A DNA stretch of 64,000 nucleotides from a candidate division WOR-3 bacterium UBA6260 (GCA_002441125.1 DJVI01000009.1:8175-72174); one strand, 5' to 3'. Positions 3,316 through 16,908 are shown, counted from the first letter of the stretch. A program made the numbers and translations. The notes: a model not told the origin generated them from the letters alone.

Positions 3316-4641
3316 TTACTTTTTAATCTTTTTCACAAAATTTTTCAAAACATCTTCAAGATTCGGTCTTCCTATTTCCTGAAGATCATAACCAACTCTT
3401 ACTGATGGTTTGTTTATTTTCACAAGTCTACCAAGATTTATAGGTGTAGCAATAACTATTGTATCACATGGTATCTTGTTTATTGTTTTTTCAAGGTCTG
3501 AGATCTGTTTTTTAGAATAACCCATAGCTGGAAGGATAGGTCCCGCTTCAGAATATTTTTCGTATGTTTCTTTTATTTCACCGACAGCGTATGGATGTGG
3601 ATCTATTATCTCTTTTGCTCCAAACCTTTTTGCTGCAACTACTCCAGCACCATATTTCATTTCACCATGTGTGAGTGTTGGTCCATCCTCAACTACAGCT
3701 ACTCTTTTTCCCTTTATTAGTTCTGGCTTTTCAACTGAGACAGGTGATGCTGCCTCTATAACTGTCGCTTTTGGATTTACCTTTGCAATACTTTCTCTAA
3801 CTATCTCGACATTTTCAGGTTTCGCTGAATCTATTTTGTTTATAACTATTACATCTGCAAGTCTAATGTTTACACAACCAGGATAGTATGTTAACTCATG
3901 TCCCGGTCTATGTGGATCGGCAACAGTTATAACAAGATCAGGTTTATAGAATGGGAAATCATTGTTTCCACCATCCCAAAGAATTATATCAGCTTCCTTT
4001 TCAGCCTGTCTTATTATATCCTCATAATCAACACCAGCATAAACAACTGTTCCATTATTTATATGTGGTTCATACTCTTCCATCTCTTCTATTGTACAGT
4101 TATGTTTTTTAAGATCTTCTATTGAAGCAAACCTCTGAACTCTTTGCTTTTCAAGGTCTCCATAAGGCATAGGATGCCTTATAGCAACGAGTTTGTAACC
4201 CATATTTCTGAGAATTGAAGAGACAGCCCTTGTTGTCTGTGATTTTCCAGAACCTGTTCTAACCGCAACTATAGATACAACTGGTTTTGTTGATTTTATG
4301 TATGTTTGTTCTGGACCAAGAAGCATATAACTTGCACCAGCAGCCATAGCCTCTGCACCTTTTGACATAACATATTGATTTGAAACATCAGAATAAGAGA
4401 AAACAACAAGATCGACCTTCTTCTCTTTTATTATTTTTGCCATATCCTTTTCATCATAGATTGGAATACCTTTTTTATAAAGTTTTCCAGCGAGTGATGG
4501 TGGATACAATCTTCCCTCTATATCTGGGATCTGTGTAGCAGTAAAACCAACAACCTCATATTCTTCATTATTTCTAAAATAAACATTAAAATTATGGAAA
4601 TCTCTCCCTGCAGCACCTAAAATCAAAACTCTCTTTTTCAT
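3316..4641 (-). CDS. COG2403-family predicted GTPase (cyclic 2,3-diphosphoglycerate synthetase-like)
   Basis: 441 aa. P-loop-like AVRTGSGKSQTT. Size and composition resemble the cDPGS/'predicted GTPase' family. The family assignment comes from memory of the motif layout and was not searched. Confidence 0.45.
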   Translation of the reverse strand: MKKRVLILGAAGRDFHNFNVYFRNNEEYEVVGFTATQIPDIEGRLYPPSLAGKLYKKGIPIYDEKDMAKIIKEKKVDLVVFSYSDVSNQYVMSKGAEAMAAGASYMLLGPEQTYIKSTKPVVSIVAVRTGSGKSQTTRAVSSILRNMGYKLVAIRHPMPYGDLEKQRVQRFASIEDLKKHNCTIEEMEEYEPHINNGTVVYAGVDYEDIIRQAEKEADIILWDGGNNDFPFYKPDLVITVADPHRPGHELTYYPGCVNIRLADVIVINKIDSAKPENVEIVRESIAKVNPKATVIEAASPVSVEKPELIKGKRVAVVEDGPTLTHGEMKYGAGVVAAKRFGAKEIIDPHPYAVGEIKETYEKYSEAGPILPAMGYSKKQISDLEKTINKIPCDTIVIATPINLGRLVKINKPSVRVGYDLQEIGRPNLEDVLKNFVKKIKK

Positions 4642-5758: not shown

Positions 5759-5938
5759 ATTTTAAAAATTTATGATTAAAACTTTTTGTATTAATGGCAA
5801 ACAGAGTTTCCAAAAATCATTTCAAAAAACATCCTTTTTAAACTTACTTCTAATCGTTGCGATAATCTAATGGCTATTCATAGTTTTTTATTTCTTTAAA
5901 AAATCATCAATAAAGGGAAAAAAGTAATATTTTTTTCT

Positions 5939-5976
5939 TCAAAAATGTCACACTGTCAAGCACCGTCCCCAATATT
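5939..5976. repeat. 38-bp direct repeat, left copy (tcaaaaatgtcacactgtcaagcaccgtccccaatatt); overlaps the 3' end of the KAP NTPase gene
   Basis: Identical by inspection to 15946-15983. It encodes the KAP protein's last residues NIGDGA plus the stop codon on the minus strand. Confidence 0.85.
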
Positions 5977-7944
5977 TGAATTTGAAATACCGTTACCAAT
6001 ATTGGAATTATTTACTATTTCCTTAAGTTTATTTAAACTATTTGTAATATCCTCTTTGAGATATTCATCAAAATTTTCTTTTTCCATTTCCATTTTATCA
6101 TTTACTTTAGCTAAAATATTTTGAAAAATATCTTTGACTTTTGCTTTATCATAATTACTAATAACATTAATCAAAATCTCTTCCAATAAAAGATCTCTTA
6201 TACTTAAACGAGATCCTTCTTTTACAAGTCGAAGATTATTTAAATAATGTTCTTTGATTTCATTTTTAAAGTTATCAAAATCTTTATTAAAAAATTCTAA
6301 AATTTCATTTATTGACTTAAATTTTTTTTTATTTATTTCTAAAAGATTTTCTTTTAAACCTAAATATAAATTCAGATTATATATTCTAAATAATCTTTTG
6401 AATAAAATAAATTGAACTACTTTTTTTTCGTTTTTTTTCATACCCTTAATAGTATTTTCAAATATGTCTTTAAAATCCAATTTTTCTTTAAATATTTCTC
6501 TAATAAAATTTATAATCATATTTTCTTGTTCTTCTTCATTATTTTTATAATTTATTTTAAAATAAATTAAAAACAATATAAGTTCCATTACACTTTTAAT
6601 CTCAACAATATTTTTATTAAGTAATAATTCTACTTTTTCAATAAAATTGTTTACTTTAGTTTTTTCGTCCTTATCACTTGACTGACCTAATATCTTATCC
6701 GAAATTTGTTCATTATTCTCTTTAAGGTTAATTAAATTTATATCTAATTGATGGATAAATAAAATCCTTTGGGTCATTAAATGTTCCCATATTAAAGGAT
6801 GCTTAAATTTTAACCATTCAATTAGGATAATATCTAACAAAAAAATATTCTCTGCTATTTCTTTTCTACCTTTTATTATTTGTTTCACATTTTCTGTTAA
6901 CATAATAACATCTCTAAAATCATCAAAATCAAAAATACTCGTTGATGTTAAGATATTGTTTAATAAAGCCAATATCAATTCTTTTTGAGAATCGTCATTA
7001 GATAAATGTTCATCAATTATTTCTATTTTTATTTTTTCTTGAAAAAAATCTCTCAAAATTTCAATAGGATTAACAAGTTCTATTTTATAATCGAATGTTT
7101 TATTTAAATAACCACTTATTAAATATTCCTTTTCAAAAATATTCATTAAAGCATTTCTATCAATAGTTGTTATAAGGTAAAAATTTGGAATCCTGCTAAA
7201 GCAGTTTATAAATTTAAATATCTCCAAAATTGTTTCACTATCTATTAATCTATCTAATTCATCTAATATTAGTATAAATTTTTTAGATTTAATATTTTTC
7301 TTAATATGATTTTTAAAATGGTTTAATCTATTTTCAAAATTTATAAGATCATCAATGTAAAATTTAAAACCACTAACTGTTACATCATAGTTTCTAAATA
7401 TATTTTCCCAATAACAATACCTAAATTTTAATCCTAAAAATTTTATAAGATTGTAATATATCTGCTCAGAAGAATAAAAACTTATTAAATTAAGATAAAC
7501 AATTTCTATTTCTTTATCTTTTTTACTTCCATTACTTTTTTTACAAAATGTTTTTTGAAAATATTTTAATAGAGTTGACTTACCTGTTCCCCATTTCCCT
7601 ACTACAGCAATTGTTGCATTATTAATCTCCACATTTTCAATAATACTCTTTAATTCTTCACAATTCTTTTTGATATTATATGCAGGTTCATCTATATTAC
7701 TCAAATGAGTATTTTTAATTTCATCATCTGAATATTGTACATTATTGAAAAATGTATCTCTCAAATACAAGATAAAAATAGAAATAATCAATAACAGTAA
7801 TGGTAAAATTATATTTAACAAATTTAGAAAATAATTGTAAAAAAGTTTAATTTTGAAAATTAATAACAAAATTAATAGAAAAAAGATTATTAAACCTATT
7901 CTATTTATAAACTTTTCTTTATTTGAATTAAACCACATCGACAA
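5956..7944 (-). CDS. KAP-family P-loop NTPase with N-terminal transmembrane helices
   Basis: 662 aa. Walker A AVVGKWGTGKST and Walker B ILILDELDRL, in the KAP NTPase arrangement. Two strongly hydrophobic N-terminal segments. Very AT- and Lys/Asn-rich. Confidence 0.65.
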   Translation of the reverse strand: MSMWFNSNKEKFINRIGLIIFFLLILLLIFKIKLFYNYFLNLLNIILPLLLLIISIFILYLRDTFFNNVQYSDDEIKNTHLSNIDEPAYNIKKNCEELKSIIENVEINNATIAVVGKWGTGKSTLLKYFQKTFCKKSNGSKKDKEIEIVYLNLISFYSSEQIYYNLIKFLGLKFRYCYWENIFRNYDVTVSGFKFYIDDLINFENRLNHFKNHIKKNIKSKKFILILDELDRLIDSETILEIFKFINCFSRIPNFYLITTIDRNALMNIFEKEYLISGYLNKTFDYKIELVNPIEILRDFFQEKIKIEIIDEHLSNDDSQKELILALLNNILTSTSIFDFDDFRDVIMLTENVKQIIKGRKEIAENIFLLDIILIEWLKFKHPLIWEHLMTQRILFIHQLDINLINLKENNEQISDKILGQSSDKDEKTKVNNFIEKVELLLNKNIVEIKSVMELILFLIYFKINYKNNEEEQENMIINFIREIFKEKLDFKDIFENTIKGMKKNEKKVVQFILFKRLFRIYNLNLYLGLKENLLEINKKKFKSINEILEFFNKDFDNFKNEIKEHYLNNLRLVKEGSRLSIRDLLLEEILINVISNYDKAKVKDIFQNILAKVNDKMEMEKENFDEYLKEDITNSLNKLKEIVNNSNIGNGISNSNIGDGA

Positions 7945-8266
7945 TTTTTATCTTATTTTAAGGAACCAATCTTTGAAATTTAAAAACTTTATTCCTAACT
8001 TCATTCCCTTTATACTTTTTTAAAATTATAAACAATAAAATTACTAAATCAAGCAAAAATTTTAAGTCAATTTACTTGTTTTGAATAACCTACATTGAAA
8101 TAAGTGATGGTATATTTATCTATAAAACTTAAAATAATCATAATAAAAATCATTTAAACATAGTAAAGTAAAAGGTCTTTATCTAACATTACATTAAGTC
8201 CTATAATTAAAAATATCCTTTTCTCAATAATATCTTATTTTATAACAGTTTTTGCAATTTTTATTT

Positions 8267-8365
8267 CTCATTCCCTTCCACTATTTTTATTTCTTCCTCA
8301 GTCAAACCATATAATTTATAAACCATCTGGTCAATCTGGCGTTCGTATTCTTTGACTTTGGCCTG
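8267..8365 (-). pseudogene. Duplicated ~100-bp fragment: 3' end of the MmeI-family methyltransferase gene plus the ATGA start/stop junction (non-functional remnant)
   Basis: About 90% identical by eye to 9292-9395. Translates on the minus strand to ...QAKVKEYERQIDQMVYKLYGLTEEEIKIVEGNEK*, against GLTDEEIKIVEGRQ* in the intact gene. It retains the overlapping ATG but continues into a 15-codon junk ORF. Confidence 0.7.
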
Positions 8366-8372
8366 GCAAATT

Positions 8373-9296
8373 TTAAAATAATGACAATTCCCCTTGTCCA
8401 GATTTTTCCTCAACATATTTTAAATTTCTATTAGTATAAAACTGGTTCCTATATCTTTTTGGGTCGCCAATATCTGTTTTTTCTTTTGGGAAAAATCTAA
8501 CCATTATTCTCTTATTATAAGAACTATTTTTCGTATTATCAATTAGTTCAATGAGTAATGGCAAATAACAATCAGCAAGTTCTTCTCTATATTTTGATTT
8601 TTTACTCTTTTCAATACCATGAATAATACTTGTTGTTACACCGAGAACACAATCACATAATTGTATTAGGTTGGAACGTCTGTCTACTTTATGGTCTTTT
8701 GGAAGAAAAGTTATTTCTTTACAATTGAAGAATATATCTTCTTGTTCACTTATTTTGTAAATACAGTGCCAAGGGAAATATTTGTGTTGTTTTTGTTGTC
8801 CATCCTCGTGATAAATATTCTCAACAATAATTTTTTTATTCCCAAAAAATGTTTTTATGGCATATAATAATGCTGACCGAAAAAAACGATTGTATTTACT
8901 ATTGAAGTCATTATTCTGGTCAAACTCTTCTTTTGAAAGGTATGAGTTATTTAATCCAAGAATATATGAATAAAATTTCTTTTGACTTTTATCAGGGTTT
9001 AAAATATACTCAAACCATCTTCTACATATATTTTTTTCATCTGCACTTGCAATTTCTGACCAATGCATAATATGGTTGTTTTTCACATAATAAGGAGAAT
9101 TTATATCAAAATTGCCCTTAAATCGTTCCTGAATAATATCATCAAGTAAAGGATTGTCAATATCTTCAACAATCAACCCTATGTAATGCCATTCATTCCC
9201 AGTATATGAACAAAATTTGGATTGGATTTCATCGGCATAAATATTAATTGTAACAGGATTTTCTTTTATTTCATTACCAAATAAATCCTTGCTCAT
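8373..9296 (-). CDS. hypothetical protein (possibly DUF3800-like), translationally coupled to the methyltransferase
   Basis: 307 aa. Its start ATG overlaps the methyltransferase stop TGA (ATGA). An N-terminal INIYADE motif is loosely similar to the DUF3800 'iyiDES' signature. No other recognisable motif. Confidence 0.5.
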   Translation of the reverse strand: MSKDLFGNEIKENPVTINIYADEIQSKFCSYTGNEWHYIGLIVEDIDNPLLDDIIQERFKGNFDINSPYYVKNNHIMHWSEIASADEKNICRRWFEYILNPDKSQKKFYSYILGLNNSYLSKEEFDQNNDFNSKYNRFFRSALLYAIKTFFGNKKIIVENIYHEDGQQKQHKYFPWHCIYKISEQEDIFFNCKEITFLPKDHKVDRRSNLIQLCDCVLGVTTSIIHGIEKSKKSKYREELADCYLPLLIELIDNTKNSSYNKRIMVRFFPKEKTDIGDPKRYRNQFYTNRNLKYVEEKSGQGELSLF

Positions 9297-12200
9297 TGTC
9301 TCCCTTCCACTATTTTTATTTCCTCATCAGTCAAACCATATAATTTATAAACCATCTGGTCAATCTGGCGTTCGTATTCTTTAACTTTGGCCTGCTTTTC
9401 TTTGTTCTGCAAATAATCATCGTCTTTTGTTATTTCAAGAATTTTATCTACGATGTCAATAAAGGGTTGTTGGTCAATTTTTTCTAGTTCAACTATTGGT
9501 AAAGAATATAAAGCATAAATCCTAAACTGCGCAAGGGTTCGGTTTTTCTGACCGTATAAACCATTTTGATATAAAAAAGACAATAGTTTAGATGAAAACA
9601 AAGCTAATAGTAGTTTTATATTTATATAATTCATTTTGGATTTTACAACATATAAATTTTGATGAGCAATTGCAAAATCATATTTCACGGGTGGGACACA
9701 TAATATTGTATCTCCTGTTTTTCTAATAAAAATTCTTTCACCATTATGTAAATTATAATCATATTTTTGGCATTGTTTTTTTGGTAGATAAACTATTTTT
9801 GCGTAACAGTATCTGTTTAATAGATCATCTCTGATTATAGGTAAAACATTTTTTGATTTTTTGTAAAAAATTTTAGAAAAATTATTATCTAATGAATGTT
9901 CACCTTCCGATATTTTACAATATTCTTTCATTTTTTTGAGGACGTTTAAATAAATCTTTTTTGCTAAATGATTTTTATAAAAACAAATATTCCCATTAAT
10001 ATATTCAACCTTGACTAATTCCTCATTTATAATGTCTCTAAGTATATATTTTCTTATTAAGTCACGTTCTATCATTTTTATATCCGAATAATTTACATAT
10101 TTATTTTCAGACTTTAATTTTTGTGAAATAAATATTGCCGTGGCAACAATTGGTTCTTCAAAAATATTGAAACCTAAATCTACTATAATAATATTATGGA
10201 ATTTATTAATAATTATATCCCGTATATCAGCATATTTAGATAGTGTAATATATGTGTTTGGAGTAATATATGTTATTATTCCTTTTTCCTTTATAATTTG
10301 AGTCCCAAGTTGTATAAACCATTTATATAAATCCTTACATCCTTTTGAGGATTCTGGAAATCTTTTTGTTATATCCGCCAATTCTTTTTCTAATAATTCT
10401 GCTTCCTTTCTTTTTCCTTTTCTTATTAATTCTTTTACAGGACTACCTTTCCCACTTAGAAATTTATACGGAGGATTTGCAATGACAATATCAAACCCAT
10501 TTTTTTCGCGAAATACTTCAGAAAAATAAATATGAAAGTCAAATTCTATATTTCCAATAGTATGGTCTATTGTTCTTAAAAATTTTAGTTGTTCGATAAA
10601 TAATTTTTGAATCTCATCTCTAATTTTAACTTTTTCCATTAAGGATGTAGTAGAAAATAAAAGTTTTTTCTTCTCTTCTATTCTTTCGTTAATATTATTA
10701 TTTGGTAGAATATTTTCTGGTAAACCTAAAAGTGAATTTCCGCATACAAGTTTGTAATCCAGGTTTGGCAAAGGTTTTATTTTTGTAACATCATCTTCGT
10801 CAACTATTAGAGAAAGCCAGAACCTGAGTTTAGCAATATCTATTGCTGATGAATCAATATCTACGCCATAAATACAGTTTTCAATGCAATGACGTTTGAA
10901 ATTATATGATGTTCGTCCCTCTTGGTTAGATAAAAAATTTGTTAAAATATTTCTTGCCTTTACAATTTCCAGCATCATTCCAACAGGAAAGGCGCCTGAA
11001 CCAACGGCAGGATCGCAAACACGGATGTTTTCTAATTTTTCATCTATAAGTTTAGCATTATTCTTTATACTTTCAGGCATCTTAATCTTTTTATATTTCC
11101 CATTATATTCCGGGTTTTCTTCTATCCTTGCAATGACAAGTTTATCGTGTTCAATTGTTATATCTCCGTATTTAATAAGTATTTCAATATCTTCTTTTTT
11201 CACCTTGCCTTCACATTCTGTTGCTAAATAATTTATCAAACTCTCCTGGCACATATAATGAACAATCTCACGAGGAGTATAATATGCCCCCTGACCTTTT
11301 CGCAAGTTCTCTTCAATCAGGTTTTCAAAAACTTTACCAAGTAATTCAGGATCAAGAGCGACCTCTTTTTCAAGTGGCTCATCTTCTTGCACAGTAAAAT
11401 TATACCTATCAAAAACATCAAGAATGCCAGTGCCTATATCTCCTTCTTTCGTTTTTTCATTATTAGAGAACAATTCATTAGGAATAATTAAATCTTTTTT
11501 TTGCCAGTCGTAGTTGTTTACTGGTTCAAAAAGACCACCATTTAAAAATGGGATTTTACAATCAAAATAGTTTGAATATGTTGAATCTGCCTGATTTGTT
11601 CTTGGATTATTTAATGTGTTATAAAACAATACTTCAAGATAATCATTAAAGAAATTTTTCTTTTCTTCACTGCACTTTTTAAATAATGAACGCAGAAAAT
11701 TCCTGTCCCCTTCTCCCCAGTTTTTATCTTTTGGAACACCAAGCCAACCCTTCTTTTGTAAAAAATAGAGGAAGACTATTTGACCTAAAAGTTTTTTGGA
11801 AAAGTCTGATGTTTTTATCTTTTTATTTTCAAATTCTTCTTTAACATTATTATCATTTTTAACAATTGTTTCAATGGTATTATTTAATTTCTGATATAGG
11901 CTAAGGTATTGACTAAGAAATTCTTTTGTAATTTTTTCAACACTAAACGCTTTTTCAAGTTGTTCTAATGTGGGATTATTTACATCATCTTGTAAAATAG
12001 GGAGTAATTGTTGTTGAGCAGTATGATTGGGCTCATTTTTGCCTACCAGAAAAGAATATCTACGAGCAGGTGTAAACTCTTCTTCTCCTTTTGGCTTGCC
12101 TGATTTTGTTTGTGTTAATTTGTATTCCTTTTTAACCAGAGAAAAACGCCAATCGTCAAGTTCTGGTGAAACAAAAGCAACAACAGCAGCATCTTTTTCT

Positions 12201-12517
12201 TTAACAGAACCATATTTACCAGCAAGATAACCTGCAATAAAATTTCGTTGCATTGTCCTGGCACGTTCAATTGAAGTTTCTTTTTTTAAGTAAACTATTA
12301 AAATATCAATTCTTTTGTCTTCTGATACATATTTGCCAACTCGTTCGTATTTGTTAATATATGGCTCATATGTATCTGGTATGTATTGTCCATGATATTC
12401 AAACGGTTCCAAAGAAATTTTATTAAATAAGTTCTTTACAAAATAGACAAATCTTTCCTTTTCAAAAGAGTTTTCAAATGTTTCTCTTATCAATTTTATA
12501 GCAGATTTTTTATCCAT
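9293..12517 (-). CDS. MmeI/PglX-family gamma-class N6-adenine DNA methyltransferase (Type IIG/IIL-like), with N-terminal MmeI-like domain and C-terminal target-recognition region
   Basis: 1074 aa. Motif X GAYYTPREIV, motif I DPAVGSGAFPVG, motif IV VIANPPYKF. Stretches resemble MmeI by recall (RNFIAGY, LFYNTLNNP...IPFLNGGLFEP). C-terminal ...LYGLTDEEIKIVEG helix. GAAGG RBS 8 nt upstream, inside the helicase 3' end. Confidence 0.8.
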   Translation of the reverse strand: MDKKSAIKLIRETFENSFEKERFVYFVKNLFNKISLEPFEYHGQYIPDTYEPYINKYERVGKYVSEDKRIDILIVYLKKETSIERARTMQRNFIAGYLAGKYGSVKEKDAAVVAFVSPELDDWRFSLVKKEYKLTQTKSGKPKGEEEFTPARRYSFLVGKNEPNHTAQQQLLPILQDDVNNPTLEQLEKAFSVEKITKEFLSQYLSLYQKLNNTIETIVKNDNNVKEEFENKKIKTSDFSKKLLGQIVFLYFLQKKGWLGVPKDKNWGEGDRNFLRSLFKKCSEEKKNFFNDYLEVLFYNTLNNPRTNQADSTYSNYFDCKIPFLNGGLFEPVNNYDWQKKDLIIPNELFSNNEKTKEGDIGTGILDVFDRYNFTVQEDEPLEKEVALDPELLGKVFENLIEENLRKGQGAYYTPREIVHYMCQESLINYLATECEGKVKKEDIEILIKYGDITIEHDKLVIARIEENPEYNGKYKKIKMPESIKNNAKLIDEKLENIRVCDPAVGSGAFPVGMMLEIVKARNILTNFLSNQEGRTSYNFKRHCIENCIYGVDIDSSAIDIAKLRFWLSLIVDEDDVTKIKPLPNLDYKLVCGNSLLGLPENILPNNNINERIEEKKKLLFSTTSLMEKVKIRDEIQKLFIEQLKFLRTIDHTIGNIEFDFHIYFSEVFREKNGFDIVIANPPYKFLSGKGSPVKELIRKGKRKEAELLEKELADITKRFPESSKGCKDLYKWFIQLGTQIIKEKGIITYITPNTYITLSKYADIRDIIINKFHNIIIVDLGFNIFEEPIVATAIFISQKLKSENKYVNYSDIKMIERDLIRKYILRDIINEELVKVEYINGNICFYKNHLAKKIYLNVLKKMKEYCKISEGEHSLDNNFSKIFYKKSKNVLPIIRDDLLNRYCYAKIVYLPKKQCQKYDYNLHNGERIFIRKTGDTILCVPPVKYDFAIAHQNLYVVKSKMNYINIKLLLALFSSKLLSFLYQNGLYGQKNRTLAQFRIYALYSLPIVELEKIDQQPFIDIVDKILEITKDDDYLQNKEKQAKVKEYERQIDQMVYKLYGLTDEEIKIVEGRQ

Positions 12518-12520
12518 AAA

Positions 12521-15500
12521 TTAGCCTTCTTTAATAAGGTATTCAGAAAGTATAACTTCTCTCGGACCAGATGTCTGCCCTGGTAACTCAGAGCTTGGTG
12601 TTTTAAAAAATGTTTCAGGAATATTCTTCTTTATTATTCCATATATTTTTAAGTAATTGTTTTCTTTTCCAATTTTTTTTATTATATTTTTAACTGTTTG
12701 TTTAGGTATAACTCCTTCTTCAAGTAGAATTAGAACTTTGTTTAAATACTCTTCATCATCTTCAGTAAAACCTTTCATTTTTGATATTGCCTTTATTAAA
12801 ATCTTTAATCTTACATCACTACTTTTACCACCTTTGGTTTTAACTTCTTGAATATCTTCAACTAATGATGACTTAAAAGCATCTTTGTTCTTGTCTAAGT
12901 AGTCATAATATTTCTGACCTATTTTTTCTCGTTTAGTATCTTTGTTTGATTTCAATATTTCTGCTGTTTGAAAGAAATCCAATTCTTTTGTTGATTCTGC
13001 GTTACTAATAAACATTTTTCTTAATTTACCTTTTCTAAAAAAAGTTATTACAGATTCTTTATCAACAGAATGAATTTTAGCACTTCGTGCTTTTTTAGGT
13101 AAGCGTTTTATTTTTTCAAATAAGTCAGGATTATTGTCCCTGATATTTCTGAGTTCAGAAAGGTATTTAAGTTCGGACTCTTCTGATTCCTCACCTTCAA
13201 TAACTTCTTTAGAATTTAACCTTTTGAAAAGTTCAAATGAATTGACCTCTTCCCCTTCAGTTAAATAAGATGCATCTTCACCAAGAATATTGTGGAAAGC
13301 CTGCAATTTTCCAATAGCTGCTTCTTCTAATTTTATTTCTTCATTTGATTGGACTGTCGGAAAGAAATTATAAATAAAAATTTTATCAAACTGTGTATCT
13401 ACTCTGTTTATACGACCTACTCTTTGAATTATACGAACAGGATTCCAAGGAATATCATAATTTATAATAACATTGGAACGATGAAGATTAACTCCTTCAG
13501 AAAGAATATCTGTGGTAATTAAAATTTTTATATCGTCTTTTGGCTTACTGCTTTTTGGATCAAAATTTTCAATTATTTTTTCCTTTATAGGAGCACCTGA
13601 TTTGCTGGAAAATGATATAACAGCGTCTTTATACATACTCTTTAAATTCTTTTCAAGATATTCCGCTGTTTCCATTGATTCGGTAAAAACAATTATCTTA
13701 TTTTCTTTCAATATTTTATCTGTTGATAGTTTATGTATAAACTCATTGATTTTAGGGTCTGTTGTTATATCTTCCCAAAGCGTTTTTATTTCTTTTAAAA
13801 TTTTTAAGTCATTGTTCAGGTCTTCAATAAATTCTGGTCTAAATTCATTTATTTTATATTTTCTAACTTTTTCTTCTTCAATCAATTTCATTATTTCATC
13901 AATATTGTCATTTTCTAAAAGGTCAAATATTTTATTGGTATATTTTTTACTGATGTAAATAGTTCCTTTATCGAACATATTGATAAATTGCTCATAAGAA
14001 TATATAAATCTATCAAGTGTATTTTTAAACGCAAAAAAACTGCTTTCAAGCCTTTTGACAAGCAACACCTTCATAAATACTTTTAAATTTTTCTGTCCAA
14101 TTTCCTCCTCTTGGATAGGATTTTCTAAATATAAGAGCGGTGTATATCTGGAATACTTAAATAGTTTTATTTTATTTATTGTTTCATTAAAAATAAAATC
14201 TGTCTTTTCATCAAATTTATAATATAGTCTTTTAGGTGTCTTTACATCGGGGAACTTTAACCCTTTTTTTGTCAGGTCTTTACTGAAATACTTTTTTATA
14301 TCTTCTCTTGTTCTGCGAACTATAAGATATTTCAGGACATCTTCCCTTATCTTTTTTGAATTATCTTTCATGATTTTTATATATTTATCGAATTCTTTTA
14401 ATCGGTCTATTCCTTTTAGTCGTTTTTGCAATGTATTAAAATATTTTTCCAGATTTTTTATATTAGGAATTGTGCTATTTCTTCCTTTTTGAAATAGTTT
14501 TATCTGACTTAATATATCATTTGGAGTATTGTTCTGCGGTGTAGCTGAAATCAAAATTACCCTTTTCCCCCAGCATATCTGTTTTAATTTTTCATAAGTT
14601 TGCGTTGACTCATTACGAAACCTGTGTGCTTCATCTATAAAAACATTTTTGTATTCTCTTTTTTTTGTTATTTCAATTATATCATCTAACTTCCCTAACG
14701 ACTCTACAATAACTGGAACATGAAAATCCTGAAATGTGCTTTCCCAATAATCTTTAAGGATTGGTGGACAGATAACTAAATTACGACCATCTAACTGTTG
14801 TGCCAGCATTGCAGAAATATATGTCTTACCAAGACCTACTACATCTGACAGGAATACACCGCCATATTCTTCTAATTTATTTTTAGCATCACTTACTGCT
14901 TCCCGTTGATATTCAAAATTCATAAAACCGTGCGGAACATCAGGTGTGTTTATTTCCTCTTGATCAATATTTATTGTTTCCTTAAAATATTCATACAAAT
15001 ATTTTAAGTAGAGTTCGTAAGGAGTTATACTCTCATTAACCCATGTTCTGGTCTTGATTGTTTCAATATATTCCTGCGAGATATCCACTGAATTCTCCCA
15101 CAATTTGTTAAATGCAGTGATAGCAAATTCATAATCAGACGGGTTTTTTAGTTCAACATTAAATTCTAAGTTTTCTTTAAGACCAGCCTTAGTAAAGTTG
15201 CTCGAACCTGTAATAACTCTTCCTATATCTCTATCATTCTCTTTAAAAGTCATGATATAAAGTTTTGAATGTATATTTTCAGTAGGATATGCTTTAATCT
15301 CTATTTTCCCCTTTTGTACCCATTCAACGAATTTTGACACACCTTCTTCAACATTATGATTATCATCCGAATACTCCATTTCTTTTATAATGGAGCCATT
15401 AATTTTTTCTTTAACTTCAGAATAAGAATAGTAGAGGTTTAGTTGTTCATTTAATCTTGCTTTTTCAATATTTTCCATAGTTTCCTTATCAGTACATATT

Positions 15501-15679
15501 CCAACTAAGATCCTTATTTTTTCAGTATTCTCTAAAGATTTATAAAGTTCATAAAAACCGCTCATATAAAAATACCCAACCAAGACATCAAAATAACGAG
15601 TATCTTTTATAAGTAATTTGAATCTTTCAAGAAGGCTTTTATCTTTTTCGTTGGTAATAAATGTTAAATCTGAATCCAT
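12521..15679 (-). CDS. PLD-family (HKD) nuclease domain fused to SNF2/DEAH-box superfamily-2 helicase
   Basis: 1052 aa. N-terminal PLD motif IHSKLYI...GSSNFT. Helicase motif I GLGKTYIS, motif II VFIDEAHRFRN, motif III ILISATPQN, motifs V/VI ...TDILSEGVNL...QRVGRINR. Only 3 nt separate its stop from the methyltransferase start. Confidence 0.8.
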   Translation of the reverse strand: MDSDLTFITNEKDKSLLERFKLLIKDTRYFDVLVGYFYMSGFYELYKSLENTEKIRILVGICTDKETMENIEKARLNEQLNLYYSYSEVKEKINGSIIKEMEYSDDNHNVEEGVSKFVEWVQKGKIEIKAYPTENIHSKLYIMTFKENDRDIGRVITGSSNFTKAGLKENLEFNVELKNPSDYEFAITAFNKLWENSVDISQEYIETIKTRTWVNESITPYELYLKYLYEYFKETINIDQEEINTPDVPHGFMNFEYQREAVSDAKNKLEEYGGVFLSDVVGLGKTYISAMLAQQLDGRNLVICPPILKDYWESTFQDFHVPVIVESLGKLDDIIEITKKREYKNVFIDEAHRFRNESTQTYEKLKQICWGKRVILISATPQNNTPNDILSQIKLFQKGRNSTIPNIKNLEKYFNTLQKRLKGIDRLKEFDKYIKIMKDNSKKIREDVLKYLIVRRTREDIKKYFSKDLTKKGLKFPDVKTPKRLYYKFDEKTDFIFNETINKIKLFKYSRYTPLLYLENPIQEEEIGQKNLKVFMKVLLVKRLESSFFAFKNTLDRFIYSYEQFINMFDKGTIYISKKYTNKIFDLLENDNIDEIMKLIEEEKVRKYKINEFRPEFIEDLNNDLKILKEIKTLWEDITTDPKINEFIHKLSTDKILKENKIIVFTESMETAEYLEKNLKSMYKDAVISFSSKSGAPIKEKIIENFDPKSSKPKDDIKILITTDILSEGVNLHRSNVIINYDIPWNPVRIIQRVGRINRVDTQFDKIFIYNFFPTVQSNEEIKLEEAAIGKLQAFHNILGEDASYLTEGEEVNSFELFKRLNSKEVIEGEESEESELKYLSELRNIRDNNPDLFEKIKRLPKKARSAKIHSVDKESVITFFRKGKLRKMFISNAESTKELDFFQTAEILKSNKDTKREKIGQKYYDYLDKNKDAFKSSLVEDIQEVKTKGGKSSDVRLKILIKAISKMKGFTEDDEEYLNKVLILLEEGVIPKQTVKNIIKKIGKENNYLKIYGIIKKNIPETFFKTPSSELPGQTSGPREVILSEYLIKEG

Positions 15680-15744
15680 ATTTTTTCCCCTAAGTTAATA
15701 TCTTGATATTTTTTTATTCTTTATAAAATAAATTTAATTTGGTT

Positions 15745-15773
15745 ATTATAAATCACAATTATTTTATTGTCAA
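15745..15773 (-). promoter_or_regulatory. Candidate sigma70-type promoter for the helicase-methyltransferase operon
   Basis: Minus-strand TTGACA (15768-15773), 17-nt spacer, TATAAT (15745-15750), about 65 nt upstream of the helicase ATG at 15679. Confidence 0.4.
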
Positions 15774-15945
15774 CTTTTTTGAATAAACAATATATTTTTA
15801 GGTGTTTATAAATTTGTTATTATAAGTAGATAAAGTTTTTTTAAAAACAAAAAACATTGGCCGTGCAGCAGTGATTGCAAACTCAATAATAGATTTCAGA
15901 GTTATGAGTCCTGTCTTTGACCAATTTGACAAAATTGTTTCAAGA

Positions 15946-15983
15946 TCAAAAATGTCACACTGTCAAGCACCGTCCCCAATATT
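15946..15983. repeat. 38-bp direct repeat, right copy (identical to 5939-5976)
   Basis: Perfect match by inspection. Lies in the intergenic region upstream of the island operon. Confidence 0.85.
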
Positions 15984-16104
15984 ATCCTTAAAACAAAAAT
16001 TTGATTTGTTGTTTTAATATGTTTTTGCAATGATCGGAGAAGAGAAAAATTCATTTGTAAATTTTTTCTTGAACTAAAAATTTTTATCTTTATACTTTTT
16101 TAAT

Positions 16105-16908
16105 ATGTATGAAATTTTAAAAATTTACGCCTTTATTGTAAGAAAATTTATAAATAAAAAAAAGAACATCAAAAAGATGCATCCCCATTTAAAAAAGGGA
16201 TATGAAGAGTATTTGAAGTTAAAAGATAAAGAAATAGTTGAAATAGAAAATAGAAAATTTAAAATAATAAAAATAAAGACAAAAATTTTTCAGGGTGGAG
16301 AGGATCTTATTGGTTACATATATGAAAACTTAAAAGAGAGTTTAAAAGATAATGATATTTTAACTGTTGCTGAATCTATAATAGGTGTAACACAGAATAG
16401 AGCATATAGAGTTGATGAGATAAAACCATCAAAATGGGCTTACTTTTTATACCCTTGGGTATCAAATGTTGATTATGGAACTGGACTTGGTATGGCTGAA
16501 ACTATGGAATGTGCTATCAGAGAGGTAGGTTTGAAAAGGATTTTAAAAGCTACCTTTTTTGGTTTTTTGGATAGAATACGAAAAAAAAGCGGTTCATTCT
16601 ATAGGATAGCAGGGAAAGAGGTTAAGAGCATTGATTTTAAGAAGAACCATCCTATACCTTTCAAAGGTTCCAACAACTATATAGTCCTTTCACCAAAAGA
16701 ACCAGAGATTTTTGCAAAAAAAGTTTACAAAAAATTTTCAAAAAATATTTTTGTCTCTGTTGTAGATGCCAACAATGTTTCAGTAGATGTACTTGCACTC
16801 TATCCTGAAGATAAAAAAATAGAAAAAATCATATATAATGTTATGAAAGGAAATCCAGCTGGACAGGACGATGAAAAAACACCTATCATTATTATCAGAG
16901 AAATTTAA
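16105..16908 (+). CDS. CofE-like (F420-0:gamma-glutamyl ligase family) protein
   Basis: 267 aa. Pattern FQGGEDLIGYI...DILTVAESIIGVTQNRAYRV resembles the CofE-family core. The start may be the internal ATG near 16177. Confidence 0.45.
   Translation: MYEILKIYAFIVRKFINKKKNIKKMHPHLKKGYEEYLKLKDKEIVEIENRKFKIIKIKTKIFQGGEDLIGYIYENLKESLKDNDILTVAESIIGVTQNRAYRVDEIKPSKWAYFLYPWVSNVDYGTGLGMAETMECAIREVGLKRILKATFFGFLDRIRKKSGSFYRIAGKEVKSIDFKKNHPIPFKGSNNYIVLSPKEPEIFAKKVYKKFSKNIFVSVVDANNVSVDVLALYPEDKKIEKIIYNVMKGNPAGQDDEKTPIIIIREI

What the first reader, a model, noticed from the sequence alone, without database searches (positions are those of the whole stretch)
5939..15983. AT-rich ~10 kb defense island bracketed by a perfect 38-bp direct repeat
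The sequence tcaaaaatgtcacactgtcaagcaccgtccccaatatt occurs identically at 5939-5976 and 15946-15983 and nowhere else in the window. The enclosed ~10 kb holds four co-oriented minus-strand genes, the PLD-SNF2 helicase, the MmeI-family methyltransferase, the 307-aa unknown and the KAP NTPase, and is visibly more AT-rich than both flanks (the SAM-methyltransferase and arcC side; the CofE-like and murJ side). The left copy forms the last 7 codons of the KAP gene and the right copy lies in the operon's upstream intergenic region. That geometry is what site-specific integration leaves behind: an att core supplied once by the host and once by the element, with the element's copy completing the KAP 3' end. 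No integrase, transposase or tRNA is present, so mobility would have to be supplied in trans or be ancient.
Basis: seen in the sequence. Interest (0 to 1): 0.8.

Follow-up and report, generated by a model that had tools for sequence, protein, structure and literature searches.

The report
Defence island flanked by dispersed REP-like repeats
The 38-base repeat on both sides of this 10-kb phage-defence island is not a private integration scar but two copies of a short repeat scattered through the genome and tied to a REP-type transposase, and comparison with relatives suggests that recombination at these repeats moved the island into a variable hotspot.

Summary
The 38-mer is exact at 5939-5976 and 15946-15983 and occurs nowhere else in the window. 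It brackets four minus-strand genes: a KAP-like NTPase, ORF307, a type IIG-like methyltransferase and a PLD-SNF2 helicase.

- **What the repeat is.** It is a copy of a ~32-nt dispersed repeat, core TGTCACACTGTCAAGCACCGTCCCC. The closest reference genome (candidate division TA06 bacterium 32_111) has 21 exact copies on 12 scaffolds.
- **Its transposase.** In three lineages a RAYT-like Y1 transposase gene is flanked by inverted copies of the repeat.
- **Variation at the site.** Near-identical relatives have this site empty (one repeat), filled by a cyclase/TPR cassette, or holding both cassettes. The island's presence or absence equals exactly "island + one repeat".
- **Origin of the island.** Its promoter-side end carries a decayed tRNA-Gln plus spacer plus repeat. 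This block is copied from the chromosomal tRNA-Glu/repeat/tRNA-Gln locus, so the island probably once lay beside tRNA-Gln.

Best reading: repeat-by-repeat recombination moved or deleted a horizontally acquired island, and no integrase was needed. Whether RecA or the RAYT-like enzyme does this is unknown. I class it as a new variant of a known kind, of moderate interest.

The parts
5939..5976 (+). Left copy of the repeat. The 25-nt core is 5946-5970, and the 33 nt at 5939-5971 are shared with relatives. It overlaps the last six codons and the stop of the KAP gene on the minus strand.
   Evidence: Exact match. The same position and left flank are found in L002 and L032. It belongs to the dispersed family.
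5876..5938 (+). About 63 nt of left flank ('e60') that occurs again, together with a degenerate repeat copy, at the tRNA-Gln locus of a relative (L064 2692-2804, 86% identical).
5956..7944 (-). KAP/AAA_22 P-loop NTPase of 662 aa, GC 20%. It is weakly PifA-like. Its last residues (GDGA) and its stop codon are encoded by the repeat.
   Evidence: Pfam AAA_22 2e-10 and KAP_NTPase 7e-6; PADLOC PifA 2e-10. GC. Present in allele 1 (L032) at 99.5% identity.
8272..8365 (-). Relic of an older methyltransferase 3' end. This is the downstream copy of the 94-nt direct repeat and encodes ...QAKVKEYERQIDQMVYKLYGLTEEEIKIVEGNEK*.
   Evidence: In L103 a related MTase 3' end is directly continuous with this DNA. 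L032 retains a longer relic of 163 nt.
8373..9296 (-). ORF307, the conserved third gene of the PLD-SNF2/methyltransferase module. It has a predicted RNase H-like fold. It is absent from allele 1.
   Evidence: About 290 homologs at 57-85% identity, none with a Pfam domain. It always follows the MTase. The AF2 model has pLDDT 87, and the best PDB match is RNase HII 1eke at E = 6e-4.
9293..12517 (-). Type IIG/MmeI-family (PglX-like) N6-adenine methyltransferase of 1074 aa. Its last 94 nt (9301-9394) form the upstream copy of the nested repeat. The segment 8366-10724 (specificity domain, C-terminus and ORF307) is replaced in allele 1.
   Evidence: Pfam Eco57I 1e-27 and N6_Mtase; PADLOC PDLC03596 2e-251. 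Homology breaks at 10724/10725 and resumes at 8365 against L001/L032.
12521..15679 (-). PLD(HKD)-SNF2 helicase/nuclease of 1052 aa, the first gene of the module.
   Evidence: Pfam PLDc_2, SNF2-rel_dom and Helicase_C; PADLOC 'HKD+Snf2' C3a139 3e-42 and DrmD 2e-36.
15857..15930 (-). Decayed full-length tRNA-Gln(CTG) pseudogene. The spacer that follows it (15931-15945) is also homologous to the spacer of the chromosomal tRNA-Gln/repeat/tRNA-Glu locus.
   Evidence: About 70% identical to the tRNA-Gln of L020 and L064. The alignment score is 71, against 16 +/- 2.8 for 500 shuffles (max 29). ARAGORN and Rfam do not call it.
15946..15983 (+). Right copy of the repeat (core 15953-15977), 267 nt upstream of the PLD-SNF2 start.
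   Evidence: Exact match. In L001/L032 the equivalent copy is the 3' end of the 499-aa TPR gene.
15979..16044 (.). About 66 nt of junction DNA found only in this allele. It stands where relatives carry the 4.2-kb cyclase/TPR cassette. Its origin is unknown.
   Evidence: It is not significantly similar to tRNA-Glu.

Best explanation
The two 38-mers are copies of a dispersed REP-like repeat of about 32 nt: AAAAA or CTAC, then TGTCACACTGTCAAGCACCGTCCCC, then AA. This repeat family belongs to a RAYT-like Y1/HUH transposase in this TA06/WOR-3-type lineage.

The DNA between them is a horizontally acquired defence island. It consists of a three-gene restriction-modification-like module (PLD-SNF2 helicase/nuclease, type IIG-like methyltransferase, RNase H-like ORF307) plus a KAP-type NTPase. 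It sits in a variable hotspot between the SAM-methyltransferase and CofE-like/murJ genes.

The island entered this hotspot, and can leave it, by recombination between repeat copies. A segment bounded by two direct copies forms a circle, or is taken up as linear DNA, that carries one copy. That copy then recombines with the resident copy at another site. The result is repeat - island - repeat.

The island came from beside the tRNA-Gln gene. It dragged a tRNA-Gln copy, the spacer and the repeat along with it. The tRNA copy has since decayed, while the repeat has stayed perfect.

**Shown here:**
- The repeat is dispersed and is associated with the RAYT-like gene.
- The alleles differ by exactly the island plus one repeat.
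- The tRNA-spacer-repeat block at the island's right end is a segmental copy.
- The island core has been transferred horizontally.

**Inferred:**
- The direction of the event (insertion or deletion).
- The circular intermediate.
- The enzyme involved: RecA-type homologous recombination on about 33 bp, or the RAYT-like protein.
For: **1. The repeat is dispersed.** TA06 32_111 has 21 exact core copies on 12 scaffolds, each with unique flanks on both sides. Metagenome contigs give 61 further loci.

**2. It is linked to a RAYT-like gene.**
- A 305-aa Y1_Tnp protein (Pfam 8e-10) has the REP-associated tyrosine transposase model as its best NCBIfam match (59.8 bits). HUH (HFH) and Tyr motifs are visible in its sequence.
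- Its gene is flanked by inverted repeat copies in L031, in L082/L094 (81% aa identity, syntenic) and in L036 (42% aa identity).
- JGI names homologs of this protein 'RayT'.

**3. There is an allelic series at one locus with 99% identical flanks**.
- L002: flank - repeat - cyclase/TPR cassette.
- L001/L032/L049+L053: flank - repeat - island - repeat - cassette.
- Window: flank - repeat - island - repeat - 66 bp.
- L027: flank - repeat only.
- Every junction lies exactly at ...CCGTCCCCA.

**4. The island's right end is a segmental copy.** Window 15857-15978 is homologous, as a block of tRNA-Gln, spacer and repeat, to the tRNA-Gln/repeat/tRNA-Glu locus L020/L064. The right copy is therefore not an independent repeat insertion.

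**5. The repeat marks synteny breaks and insertions elsewhere.** Examples are L080 vs L089 and L045 vs L063. Five left-flank clusters are joined to more than one right-flank cluster, and five right-flank clusters to more than one left-flank cluster.

**6. The repeat is kept far better than its surroundings.** Four non-redundant orthologous pairs show 3 differences where about 20 are expected from flank divergence.

**7. The island has no integrase**, and the repeat does not occur in viral contigs.

**8. The island core is horizontally mobile.** It is 78-80% nt identical to Ca. Tepidiaquacella (Ignavibacteriae) and 86% identical to L103 in another context.
Against: - No circle-junction contig (island right end - repeat - KAP end) was found among 104 repeat copies, and neither was a precursor allele (flank - repeat - 66 bp).
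- No genome was found with the island beside an intact tRNA-Gln.
- Thirty-three bp is marginal for RecA-dependent recombination.
- The single copies do not form a hairpin (0 kcal/mol), so it is unclear how a Y1 enzyme would recognise them.
- The neighbouring cyclase/TPR cassette has a repeat at one end only. Not every insertion at this hotspot fits the model.
- The extra ATATT shared by the two window copies is unexplained.
- The RAYT-like protein scores below NCBIfam's curated cut-off.
- The window itself encodes no such gene.
Confidence: 0.6

Rival explanations
1. Bystander repeats. The island arrived by another route, such as homologous replacement through the conserved flanking genes or one-sided homology-facilitated illegitimate recombination. 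The two repeat copies are ordinary dispersed copies that tend to sit at gene 3' ends. The island-free allele either arose later by deletion between them or never had the island.
For: - Repeat copies often lie at or over the 3' ends of unrelated genes. Examples are a DinB-like gene ending ...GDGA*, a Por_Secre_tail protein, and the operon end in L016.
- The cyclase/TPR cassette at the same hotspot has no second copy.
- Within the island, the specificity-domain/ORF307 segment was clearly replaced by one-sided recombination without any repeat involvement.
Against: - The right copy is part of a block copied from the tRNA-Gln locus, so it travelled with adjoining DNA.
- The alleles differ by precisely island + one copy.
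- With about one copy per 80-100 kb, two chance copies exactly at both ends of a 10-kb island are unlikely.
Confidence: 0.2
2. RAYT-catalysed mobilisation. The Y1/HUH transposase cuts single-stranded DNA at the repeat. It excises and re-inserts whatever lies between two directly oriented copies, much as IS200/IS605 TnpA acts on its left and right ends. The island would then be a non-autonomous, repeat-bounded cargo element mobilised in trans.
For: - All new DNA at this hotspot joins exactly at the 3' edge of the repeat. This recalls the IS200/IS605 rule of inserting 3' of a fixed target (established knowledge).
- Four independent loci carry a 25-27-nt tandem duplication that starts at one fixed position inside the repeat (TGT|CAAGCACC). 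It has no microhomology and is polymorphic between 97-98% identical orthologs. This suggests site-specific nicking.
- The repeat is conserved far beyond its flanks, and beyond its own transposase.
Against: - No hairpin forms in single copies. Known RAYTs and TnpA enzymes need one (PMC3337134 and established knowledge).
- RAYT-like enzymes have not been shown to move kilobase cargo.
- No circle junction was found.
- The transposase is encoded elsewhere and was not tested.
Confidence: 0.13
3. One reading: a classical integrative island. A tyrosine or serine integrase, now lost or acting in trans, recombined a 38-bp attP with an identical unique attB.
For: - Direct repeats lie at both ends and empty sites have one copy.
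- A tRNA-derived sequence at one end is typical of tRNA-targeting islands.
Against: - The 'att core' is present in more than 20 unrelated places per genome.
- Only 33 nt are shared between alleles.
- No integrase is present in the island or in any allele examined.
- The pseudo-tRNA is full-length and lies inside the island next to the repeat. It is not a 3' fragment forming the repeat itself.
- The repeat has no hits in viral contigs.
Confidence: 0.07

Closest known systems
REP/REPIN elements with their RAYT (REP-associated tyrosine transposase), as described in Pseudomonas and enterobacteria (PMC3337134, PMC3116915, PMC5581495)
   Same: - Short dispersed, mostly extragenic repeats, with one specific repeat type per transposase.
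- A Y1/HUH transposase gene flanked by inverted copies and kept at a syntenic position.
- Inverted doublets (REPIN-like) in some genomes (L029, L044, L088).
- A CTAC/GTAG tag in one subfamily.
- Repeat sequence conserved over long times.
   Different: - Most copies here are single and not palindromic (no hairpin).
- The copy number is low (about 20, not hundreds).
- The transposase is about 305 aa with a C-terminal extension and scores below the curated RAYT cut-off.
- The host is a TA06/WOR-3-type candidate lineage.
- Several copies overlap gene 3' ends and supply stop codons.
- Copies bound a 10-kb island.
tRNA-linked genomic islands bounded by direct att repeats
   Same: - The island is bounded by direct repeats.
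- Empty sites exist in relatives.
- The cargo is foreign.
- A tRNA-derived sequence lies at one end.
   Different: - There is no integrase.
- The repeat is not tRNA-derived and is not unique.
- The tRNA copy is a decayed full-length passenger.
Rearrangements at dispersed repeats. Examples are REP-mediated duplications in Salmonella, and the dRS3/Correia repeats and 'minimal mobile elements' of Neisseria (my own knowledge; PMC3898611 reviews Neisseria genome flexibility).
   Same: Short dispersed repeats act as portable homology or as recombination and insertion sites where gene cassettes differ between strains.
   Different: - The repeat family and host are different.
- Here a passenger flank (tRNA-Gln) documents a translocation from one repeat site to another.
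Helicase-plus-methyltransferase defence systems: DISARM class 1 (DrmD/DrmMI), BREX PglX, PADLOC 'HKD+Snf2' candidate C3a139, Hma, and type IIG restriction-modification enzymes
   Same: - The cargo pairs a PLD/HKD-SNF2 helicase with a PglX/MmeI-like N6-adenine methyltransferase.
- The best PADLOC matches are to these models.
   Different: - DrmA/DrmB, PglZ/BrxC and HmaC are all absent.
- A conserved RNase H-like third gene (ORF307 family, no Pfam) is present instead.

Membership tests
REP/REPIN-RAYT system | A Y1 (HUH) transposase of the RAYT clade | tested here: inconclusive
   For L031 (305 aa), Pfam Y1_Tnp gives 8e-10. The best NCBIfam model is REP_Tyr_transpos NF047646 at 59.8 bits, below its 80-bit cut-off; IS200 gives only 17 bits. 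JGI names homologs 'RayT'. The gene lies outside the window.
REP/REPIN-RAYT system | The transposase gene is flanked by its own repeats in inverted orientation | tested here: met
   L031: 3032-3056(-) against 3973-4000(+) and 4015-4039(+). L082 and L094 show the same arrangement. L036: 2053-2077(-) and 3012-3036(+).
REP/REPIN-RAYT system | The transposase is single-copy and vertically inherited | tested here: inconclusive
   The locus is syntenic in three assemblies at 82-90% nt identity. There is one hit per lineage among the repeat-bearing loci. Whole genomes were not scanned.
REP/REPIN-RAYT system | The repeat unit is a short imperfect palindrome (hairpin in single-stranded DNA) | tested here: not met
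   The window copies fold at 0 and -1.5 kcal/mol, no better than shuffles. Only the inverted doublets in other genomes (L029, L044, L088) could form hairpins.
REP/REPIN-RAYT system | Many dispersed, mostly extragenic copies in one genome | tested here: met
   TA06 32_111 has 21 exact copies on 12 scaffolds plus degenerate ones. The flanks are unique. A few copies overlap ORF 3' ends.
Integrase-dependent integrative island (attL/attR) | An integrase or recombinase is encoded in the element | tested here: not met
   None of the four island proteins has such a domain. None is present in alleles L001, L032 or L034.
Integrase-dependent integrative island (attL/attR) | The att core is specific to the integration site | tested here: not met
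   The core is dispersed genome-wide.
Integrase-dependent integrative island (attL/attR) | An empty site with a single core copy exists in relatives | tested here: met
   L002 and L027.
Integron gene cassette (attC) | An IntI integrase, and palindromic attC sites in a tandem cassette array | tested here: not met
   The repeat is not a palindrome. No integrase domain was found in the proteins I scanned at this locus: the SAM-methyltransferase and 441-aa protein on the left, the four island genes, and CofE-like and MurJ on the right. The precomputed Pfam hits for the genes of the related loci also list none. Copies are scattered and not arrayed.
DISARM / BREX / Hma (the cargo) | The full gene set: DrmA+DrmB, or PglZ+BrxC, or HmaC | tested here: not met
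   Only the helicase and methyltransferase match, and only partially (DrmD 2e-36, DrmMI 1e-24, PglX 2.5e-23, HmaA 1e-21). The other two proteins match none of these systems.
Type IIG restriction-modification enzyme (the methyltransferase) | A full-length match to a type IIG RE-MTase model | tested here: met
   PADLOC PDLC03596 gives E = 2e-251. I did not test whether the N-terminal domain is an active nuclease.

The most novel reading that the evidence does not exclude
The short repeat is the recognition and cleavage site of a domesticated Y1/HUH (RAYT-like) enzyme that can excise and re-insert any DNA lying between two directly oriented copies. Integrase-less defence islands would then be non-autonomous 'repeat-bounded translocatable units' that hop between repeat sites and carry scraps of their previous neighbourhood with them, here a tRNA-Gln. 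The fixed-boundary 25-27-nt duplications would be footprints of this enzyme's staggered nicking.
Probability: 0.15. Interest if true: 0.85.

Novelty: new variant of a known kind. Interest (0 to 1): 0.55.

Why it matters
Many defence islands sit in chromosomal hotspots with no integrase or transposase, and how they get there is an open question.

This locus offers a concrete, testable route. A dispersed, transposase-associated repeat acts as a portable recombination site. An allelic series is available (empty, cassette A, island plus cassette A, island alone). A molecular fossil, the decayed tRNA-Gln with its spacer and repeat, records a move from one repeat site to another.

The locus also extends REP/RAYT-type systems to an uncultured TA06/WOR-3-type lineage. 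There the repeats are mostly non-palindromic single copies that are conserved more strictly than their own transposase.

Tried and rejected
- **Unique att site.** Rejected by the genome and metagenome scans.
- **Phage att site.** The core has no match in viral contigs.
- **Structured RNA or terminator.** Rfam finds nothing in 15600-16200 at E <= 10, and neither strand forms a hairpin.
- **Sigma-70 promoter.** The reverse complement contains TTGACA, but by eye I saw no consistent -10 element across copies (read). I did not pursue this.
- **tRNA-Glu remnant.** I asked whether the 66-bp junction segment (15979-16044) is a decayed tRNA-Glu. It scores no better than shuffles, with or without leniency for transitions.
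- **Cyclase gene start.** I asked whether the same segment holds the start of the cyclase gene. There is no similarity.
- **Transposable element with terminal inverted repeats.** Copies are single, with unique flanks on both sides.
- **Integron attC.** Rejected (see the membership test).
- **Circle junctions or precursor alleles.** None appeared among 104 repeat copies.
- **Exact-sequence look-ups that led nowhere.** The KAP protein and the 341-aa SAM-MT start variant are not on record. The PLD-SNF2 and 317-aa SAM-MT look-ups returned only the same strain.
- **afdb50 fold library.** It was unavailable.

Full report
**Observation**

The 38-mer TCAAAAATGTCACACTGTCAAGCACCGTCCCCAATATT occurs exactly twice, at 5939-5976 and 15946-15983. 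There is no third copy at up to 3 mismatches, and shuffled sequence gives none. A relaxed search with a 27-nt core and up to 7 substitutions finds no further copy in the 64 kb.

Four co-oriented minus-strand genes lie between the copies:
- An AAA_22/KAP-like NTPase (5956-7944).
- A 307-aa protein with no family match (8373-9296).
- An Eco57I/N6_Mtase/MmeI-type methyltransferase (9293-12517; PADLOC type IIG model E = 2e-251).
- A PLD + SNF2 helicase (12521-15679; PADLOC 'HKD+Snf2' 3e-42).

The left copy supplies the last six KAP codons (NIGDGA) and the stop codon. The right copy lies 267 nt upstream of the helicase start. The island has GC 0.264, against 0.329 and 0.303 for the flanks. This is mostly due to KAP (0.201); the other genes are close to the window mean of 0.299.

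**What the repeat is**

I scanned one genome per species for the 25-nt core, with the wobble positions left free. The scan returned 21 exact copies on 12 scaffolds of 'candidate division TA06 bacterium 32_111' (LGFX01). A few near-identical copies came from MAGs labelled Omnitrophota, Spirochaetes and Atribacterota.

Aligned, the copies share [AAAAA or (C)CTAC]-TGTCACACTGTCAAGCACCGTCCCC-AA and have unrelated flanks on both sides. A metagenome scan added 61 loci. Viral contigs have none.

The unit has no hairpin (0 and -1.5 kcal/mol, no better than shuffles) and no Rfam match.

In TA06 32_111 a 305-aa gene is flanked by inverted copies of the repeat (L031 3032-3056 on the minus strand; 3973-4000 and 4015-4039 on the plus strand).
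- The protein is a Y1_Tnp (Pfam 8e-10).
- Its best NCBIfam model is 'REP-associated tyrosine transposase', at 59.8 bits, below the 80-bit cut-off. IS200 scores only 17 bits.
- HFH and Tyr motifs are visible in the sequence.
- The same gene is flanked by inverted copies in two further assemblies at a syntenic position (L082 and L094, 81% aa identity). It is also flanked this way in a distant relative (L036, 42% aa identity), where the repeat core is still 25/25 identical.
- About 130 homologs occur, mostly in WOR-3/TA06/Stahlbacteria MAGs. JGI names many of them 'REP element-mobilizing transposase RayT'.

Inverted doublets of the repeat (REPIN-like) occur in some genomes (L029, L044, L088).

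These are the hallmarks of REP/REPIN-RAYT systems (PMC3337134). The exception is that the single copies here are not palindromic.

Orthologous copies are far better conserved than their flanks. Four non-redundant pairs show 3 differences where about 20 are expected.

**The locus in relatives**

Exact-protein look-ups and blastn give an allelic series with 99% identical flanks.
- **Allele 2** (L002): SAM-MT - repeat - [TPR 490 aa, cyclase/AAA_16 579 aa + 316 aa] - CofE. Here the repeat forms the 3' end of the TPR gene (...KSGDGA*).
- **Allele 1** (L001; L032 = FWPV01005325; L049+L053 on an 893-kb contig): SAM-MT - repeat - KAP - methyltransferase (a different specificity domain, no ORF307) - PLD-SNF2 - repeat - [TPR 499 aa, cyclase 896 aa] - CofE.
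- **The window**: the same island, then the repeat, then 66 bp of unique DNA, then CofE.
- **L027**, the orthologous site of TA06 32_111 (88-91% identity): only about 480 bp, with one repeat copy abutting the CofE promoter region.

Every junction lies exactly after ...CCGTCCCCA. Only 33 nt are common to the copies across alleles. In allele 1 the left copy continues ATATT (KAP) and the right copy continues CTTTT (TPR). Alleles 1 and 2 therefore differ by exactly 'island + one repeat copy'.

**A fossil at the island's right end**

The 89 nt between the helicase promoter region and the right repeat (15857-15945) are homologous to tRNA-Gln(CTG) plus its downstream spacer at the chromosomal tRNA-Gln / repeat / tRNA-Glu locus. 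That locus is represented by L020 in TA06 32_111 and L064 in the 893-kb contig that also holds allele 1.
- Identity is about 70%.
- The alignment score is 71, against 16 +/- 2.8 for shuffles (max 29).
- ARAGORN and Rfam no longer call it.

The true tRNA-Gln and spacer are 100% identical between L020 and L064. The island copy is therefore a decayed or foreign passenger, yet the repeat next to it is perfect. This shows that the right repeat came as part of a block from a tRNA-Gln locus and not by independent repeat dispersal.

Conversely, the last 63 nt of the window's left flank plus a degenerate repeat occur at the tRNA locus of L064 (86% identity).

**The repeat elsewhere**

Clustering the flanks of 104 copies gave 57 left and 57 right clusters. 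Five left clusters are joined to more than one right cluster, and five right clusters to more than one left cluster. Two examples:
- L080 vs L089: 5.4 kb of 92% identity on one side and unrelated DNA on the other, with the break at the repeat.
- L045 vs L063: a 2.35-kb insertion immediately after the repeat, and in L045 a truncated tRNA-Leu.

Four independent loci carry a 25-27-nt tandem duplication that always starts at TGT|CAAGCACC inside the repeat and ends 11-13 nt beyond it. There is no microhomology at the ends. The ortholog of one such locus (97-98% identical flanks) lacks the duplication.

**The cargo**

ORF307 belongs to a family of about 290 proteins, 57-85% identical across phyla and without a Pfam domain. 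Its gene always lies directly after a PLD-SNF2 helicase and a type IIG-like methyltransferase. The AlphaFold model (pLDDT 87) resembles RNase H-like nucleases most closely (RNase HII 1eke at E = 6e-4; NurA; TM1739).

The core is 78-80% nt identical to a locus in Ca. Tepidiaquacella proteinivora (Ignavibacteriae, CP054675; PMC7509429). It is 86% identical to a contig with a GmrSD neighbour. This points to recent horizontal transfer.

The island is itself a mosaic. Window 8366-10724 (specificity domain, C-terminus and ORF307) and the corresponding part of allele 1 are independent replacements. Both leave a relic of an older methyltransferase 3' end, which explains the nested 94-nt repeat. The same geometry, a 152-nt repeat, brackets the ORF307 homolog in a Melioribacteraceae genome.

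**Mechanism**

The best-supported reading is recombination between copies of a dispersed, RAYT-associated repeat. A segment bounded by two direct copies is excised as a circle, or taken up from another strain. It carries one copy plus the former left flank of that copy, here tRNA-Gln and its spacer. It then recombines with the resident copy at the SAM-MT/CofE hotspot. The reverse reaction deletes it.

The shown parts are the dispersed nature of the repeat, the RAYT link, the exact indel and the copied block. The direction of the event, the circular intermediate and the enzyme are inferred.

The rivals are:
- Bystander repeats with a later deletion between them (0.2).
- RAYT-catalysed single-strand mobilisation of repeat-bounded cargo (0.13; the most novel reading).
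- Classical integrase-mediated integration (0.07).

Against the best reading:
- No circle junction or precursor allele was found.
- Thirty-three bp is short for RecA.
- Single copies lack a hairpin.
- The cyclase/TPR cassette has a repeat at one end only.

**Verdict**

The finding is a new variant of known things (REP/RAYT systems; rearrangement at dispersed repeats). It bears directly on how integrase-less defence islands move.

Noticed in passing
window 8272-8365 and 9301-9394; L101 (CP129490) around 9001-10100: A second, nested direct repeat (94 nt, 97% identical) brackets ORF307. The upstream copy is the methyltransferase 3' end and the downstream copy is a relic of an older 3' end. A Melioribacteraceae genome shows the same geometry (152 nt, 88% identical) around its ORF307 homolog. 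Allele 1 keeps a 163-nt relic but has a different specificity domain and no ORF307.
   Followed up: partly
window 8373-9296 (-): ORF307 belongs to a widespread family with no Pfam domain (about 290 homologs, 57-85% identical across phyla). Its gene always lies right after a PLD-SNF2 helicase and a type IIG-like methyltransferase. The predicted fold is RNase H-like, and an N-x-Y-A-D-E motif is invariant.
   Followed up: partly
L027 (~5960-6015), L051, L057 (~7378-7445), L092; the ortholog L072 lacks it: A recurrent 25-27-nt tandem duplication starts at a fixed position inside the repeat (TGT|CAAGCACCGTCCCC) and extends 11-13 nt into the right flank. It occurs at four independent loci, has no microhomology, and is polymorphic between near-identical relatives. 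It looks like a footprint of site-specific staggered nicking.
   Followed up: partly
L033 (CP054675) 11593-12262; L034 ~1730-2476; equivalent to window ~10918-10938: An IS200-like Y1_Tnp sits inside the methyltransferase gene at the same position in two relatives, and the gene caller reads it as one fused ORF. In L033 it is bounded by hairpin repeats (AGTAACTCAACCATCCTGGTTGAGA).
   Followed up: no
L001 5688-9911; L002 5671-9911: An alternative cassette occupies the same hotspot: an adenylate/guanylate cyclase + AAA_16/STAND protein (896 aa) with a TPR protein (499 aa). In L002 the cyclase gene is split into 316 + 579 aa.
   Followed up: no
L033 5784-13264; L103 2092-8656: The PLD-SNF2 + methyltransferase core is 78-87% nt identical to loci in an Ignavibacteriae genome and in a contig with a GmrSD neighbour. 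This indicates recent cross-phylum transfer. In L033 the island lies between two aminotransferase paralogs.
   Followed up: partly
L036 2053-3036; L017, L024, L029: The repeat core is 25/25 identical next to a RAYT-like gene that is only 42% identical. It is also 24-25/25 identical in MAGs labelled Omnitrophota, Spirochaetes and Atribacterota. This could reflect unusual conservation, transfer or mis-binning.
   Followed up: no
L064 2692-2804 vs window 5876-5983: The last 63 nt of the window's left flank plus a degenerate repeat copy recur at the tRNA-Gln locus of a relative, exactly where synteny with TA06 32_111 breaks. This may be a second example of a flank carried along with a repeat.
   Followed up: partly
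L045 (~6240-6480) vs L063 6586-6842: A truncated tRNA-Leu plus about 150 nt plus a repeat copy lies in one assembly, against the intact tRNA-Leu locus in another. A 2.35-kb insertion sits immediately after the repeat in L063.
   Followed up: no
L021 20-1240; L028 3100-5100; L031 3026-3943: The repeat overlaps the 3' ends of unrelated genes and supplies their last residues and stop codon. These are a DinB-like polymerase (...GDGA*), a Por_Secre_tail protein (...GTVLDSVTF*) and the RAYT-like gene itself.
   Followed up: no
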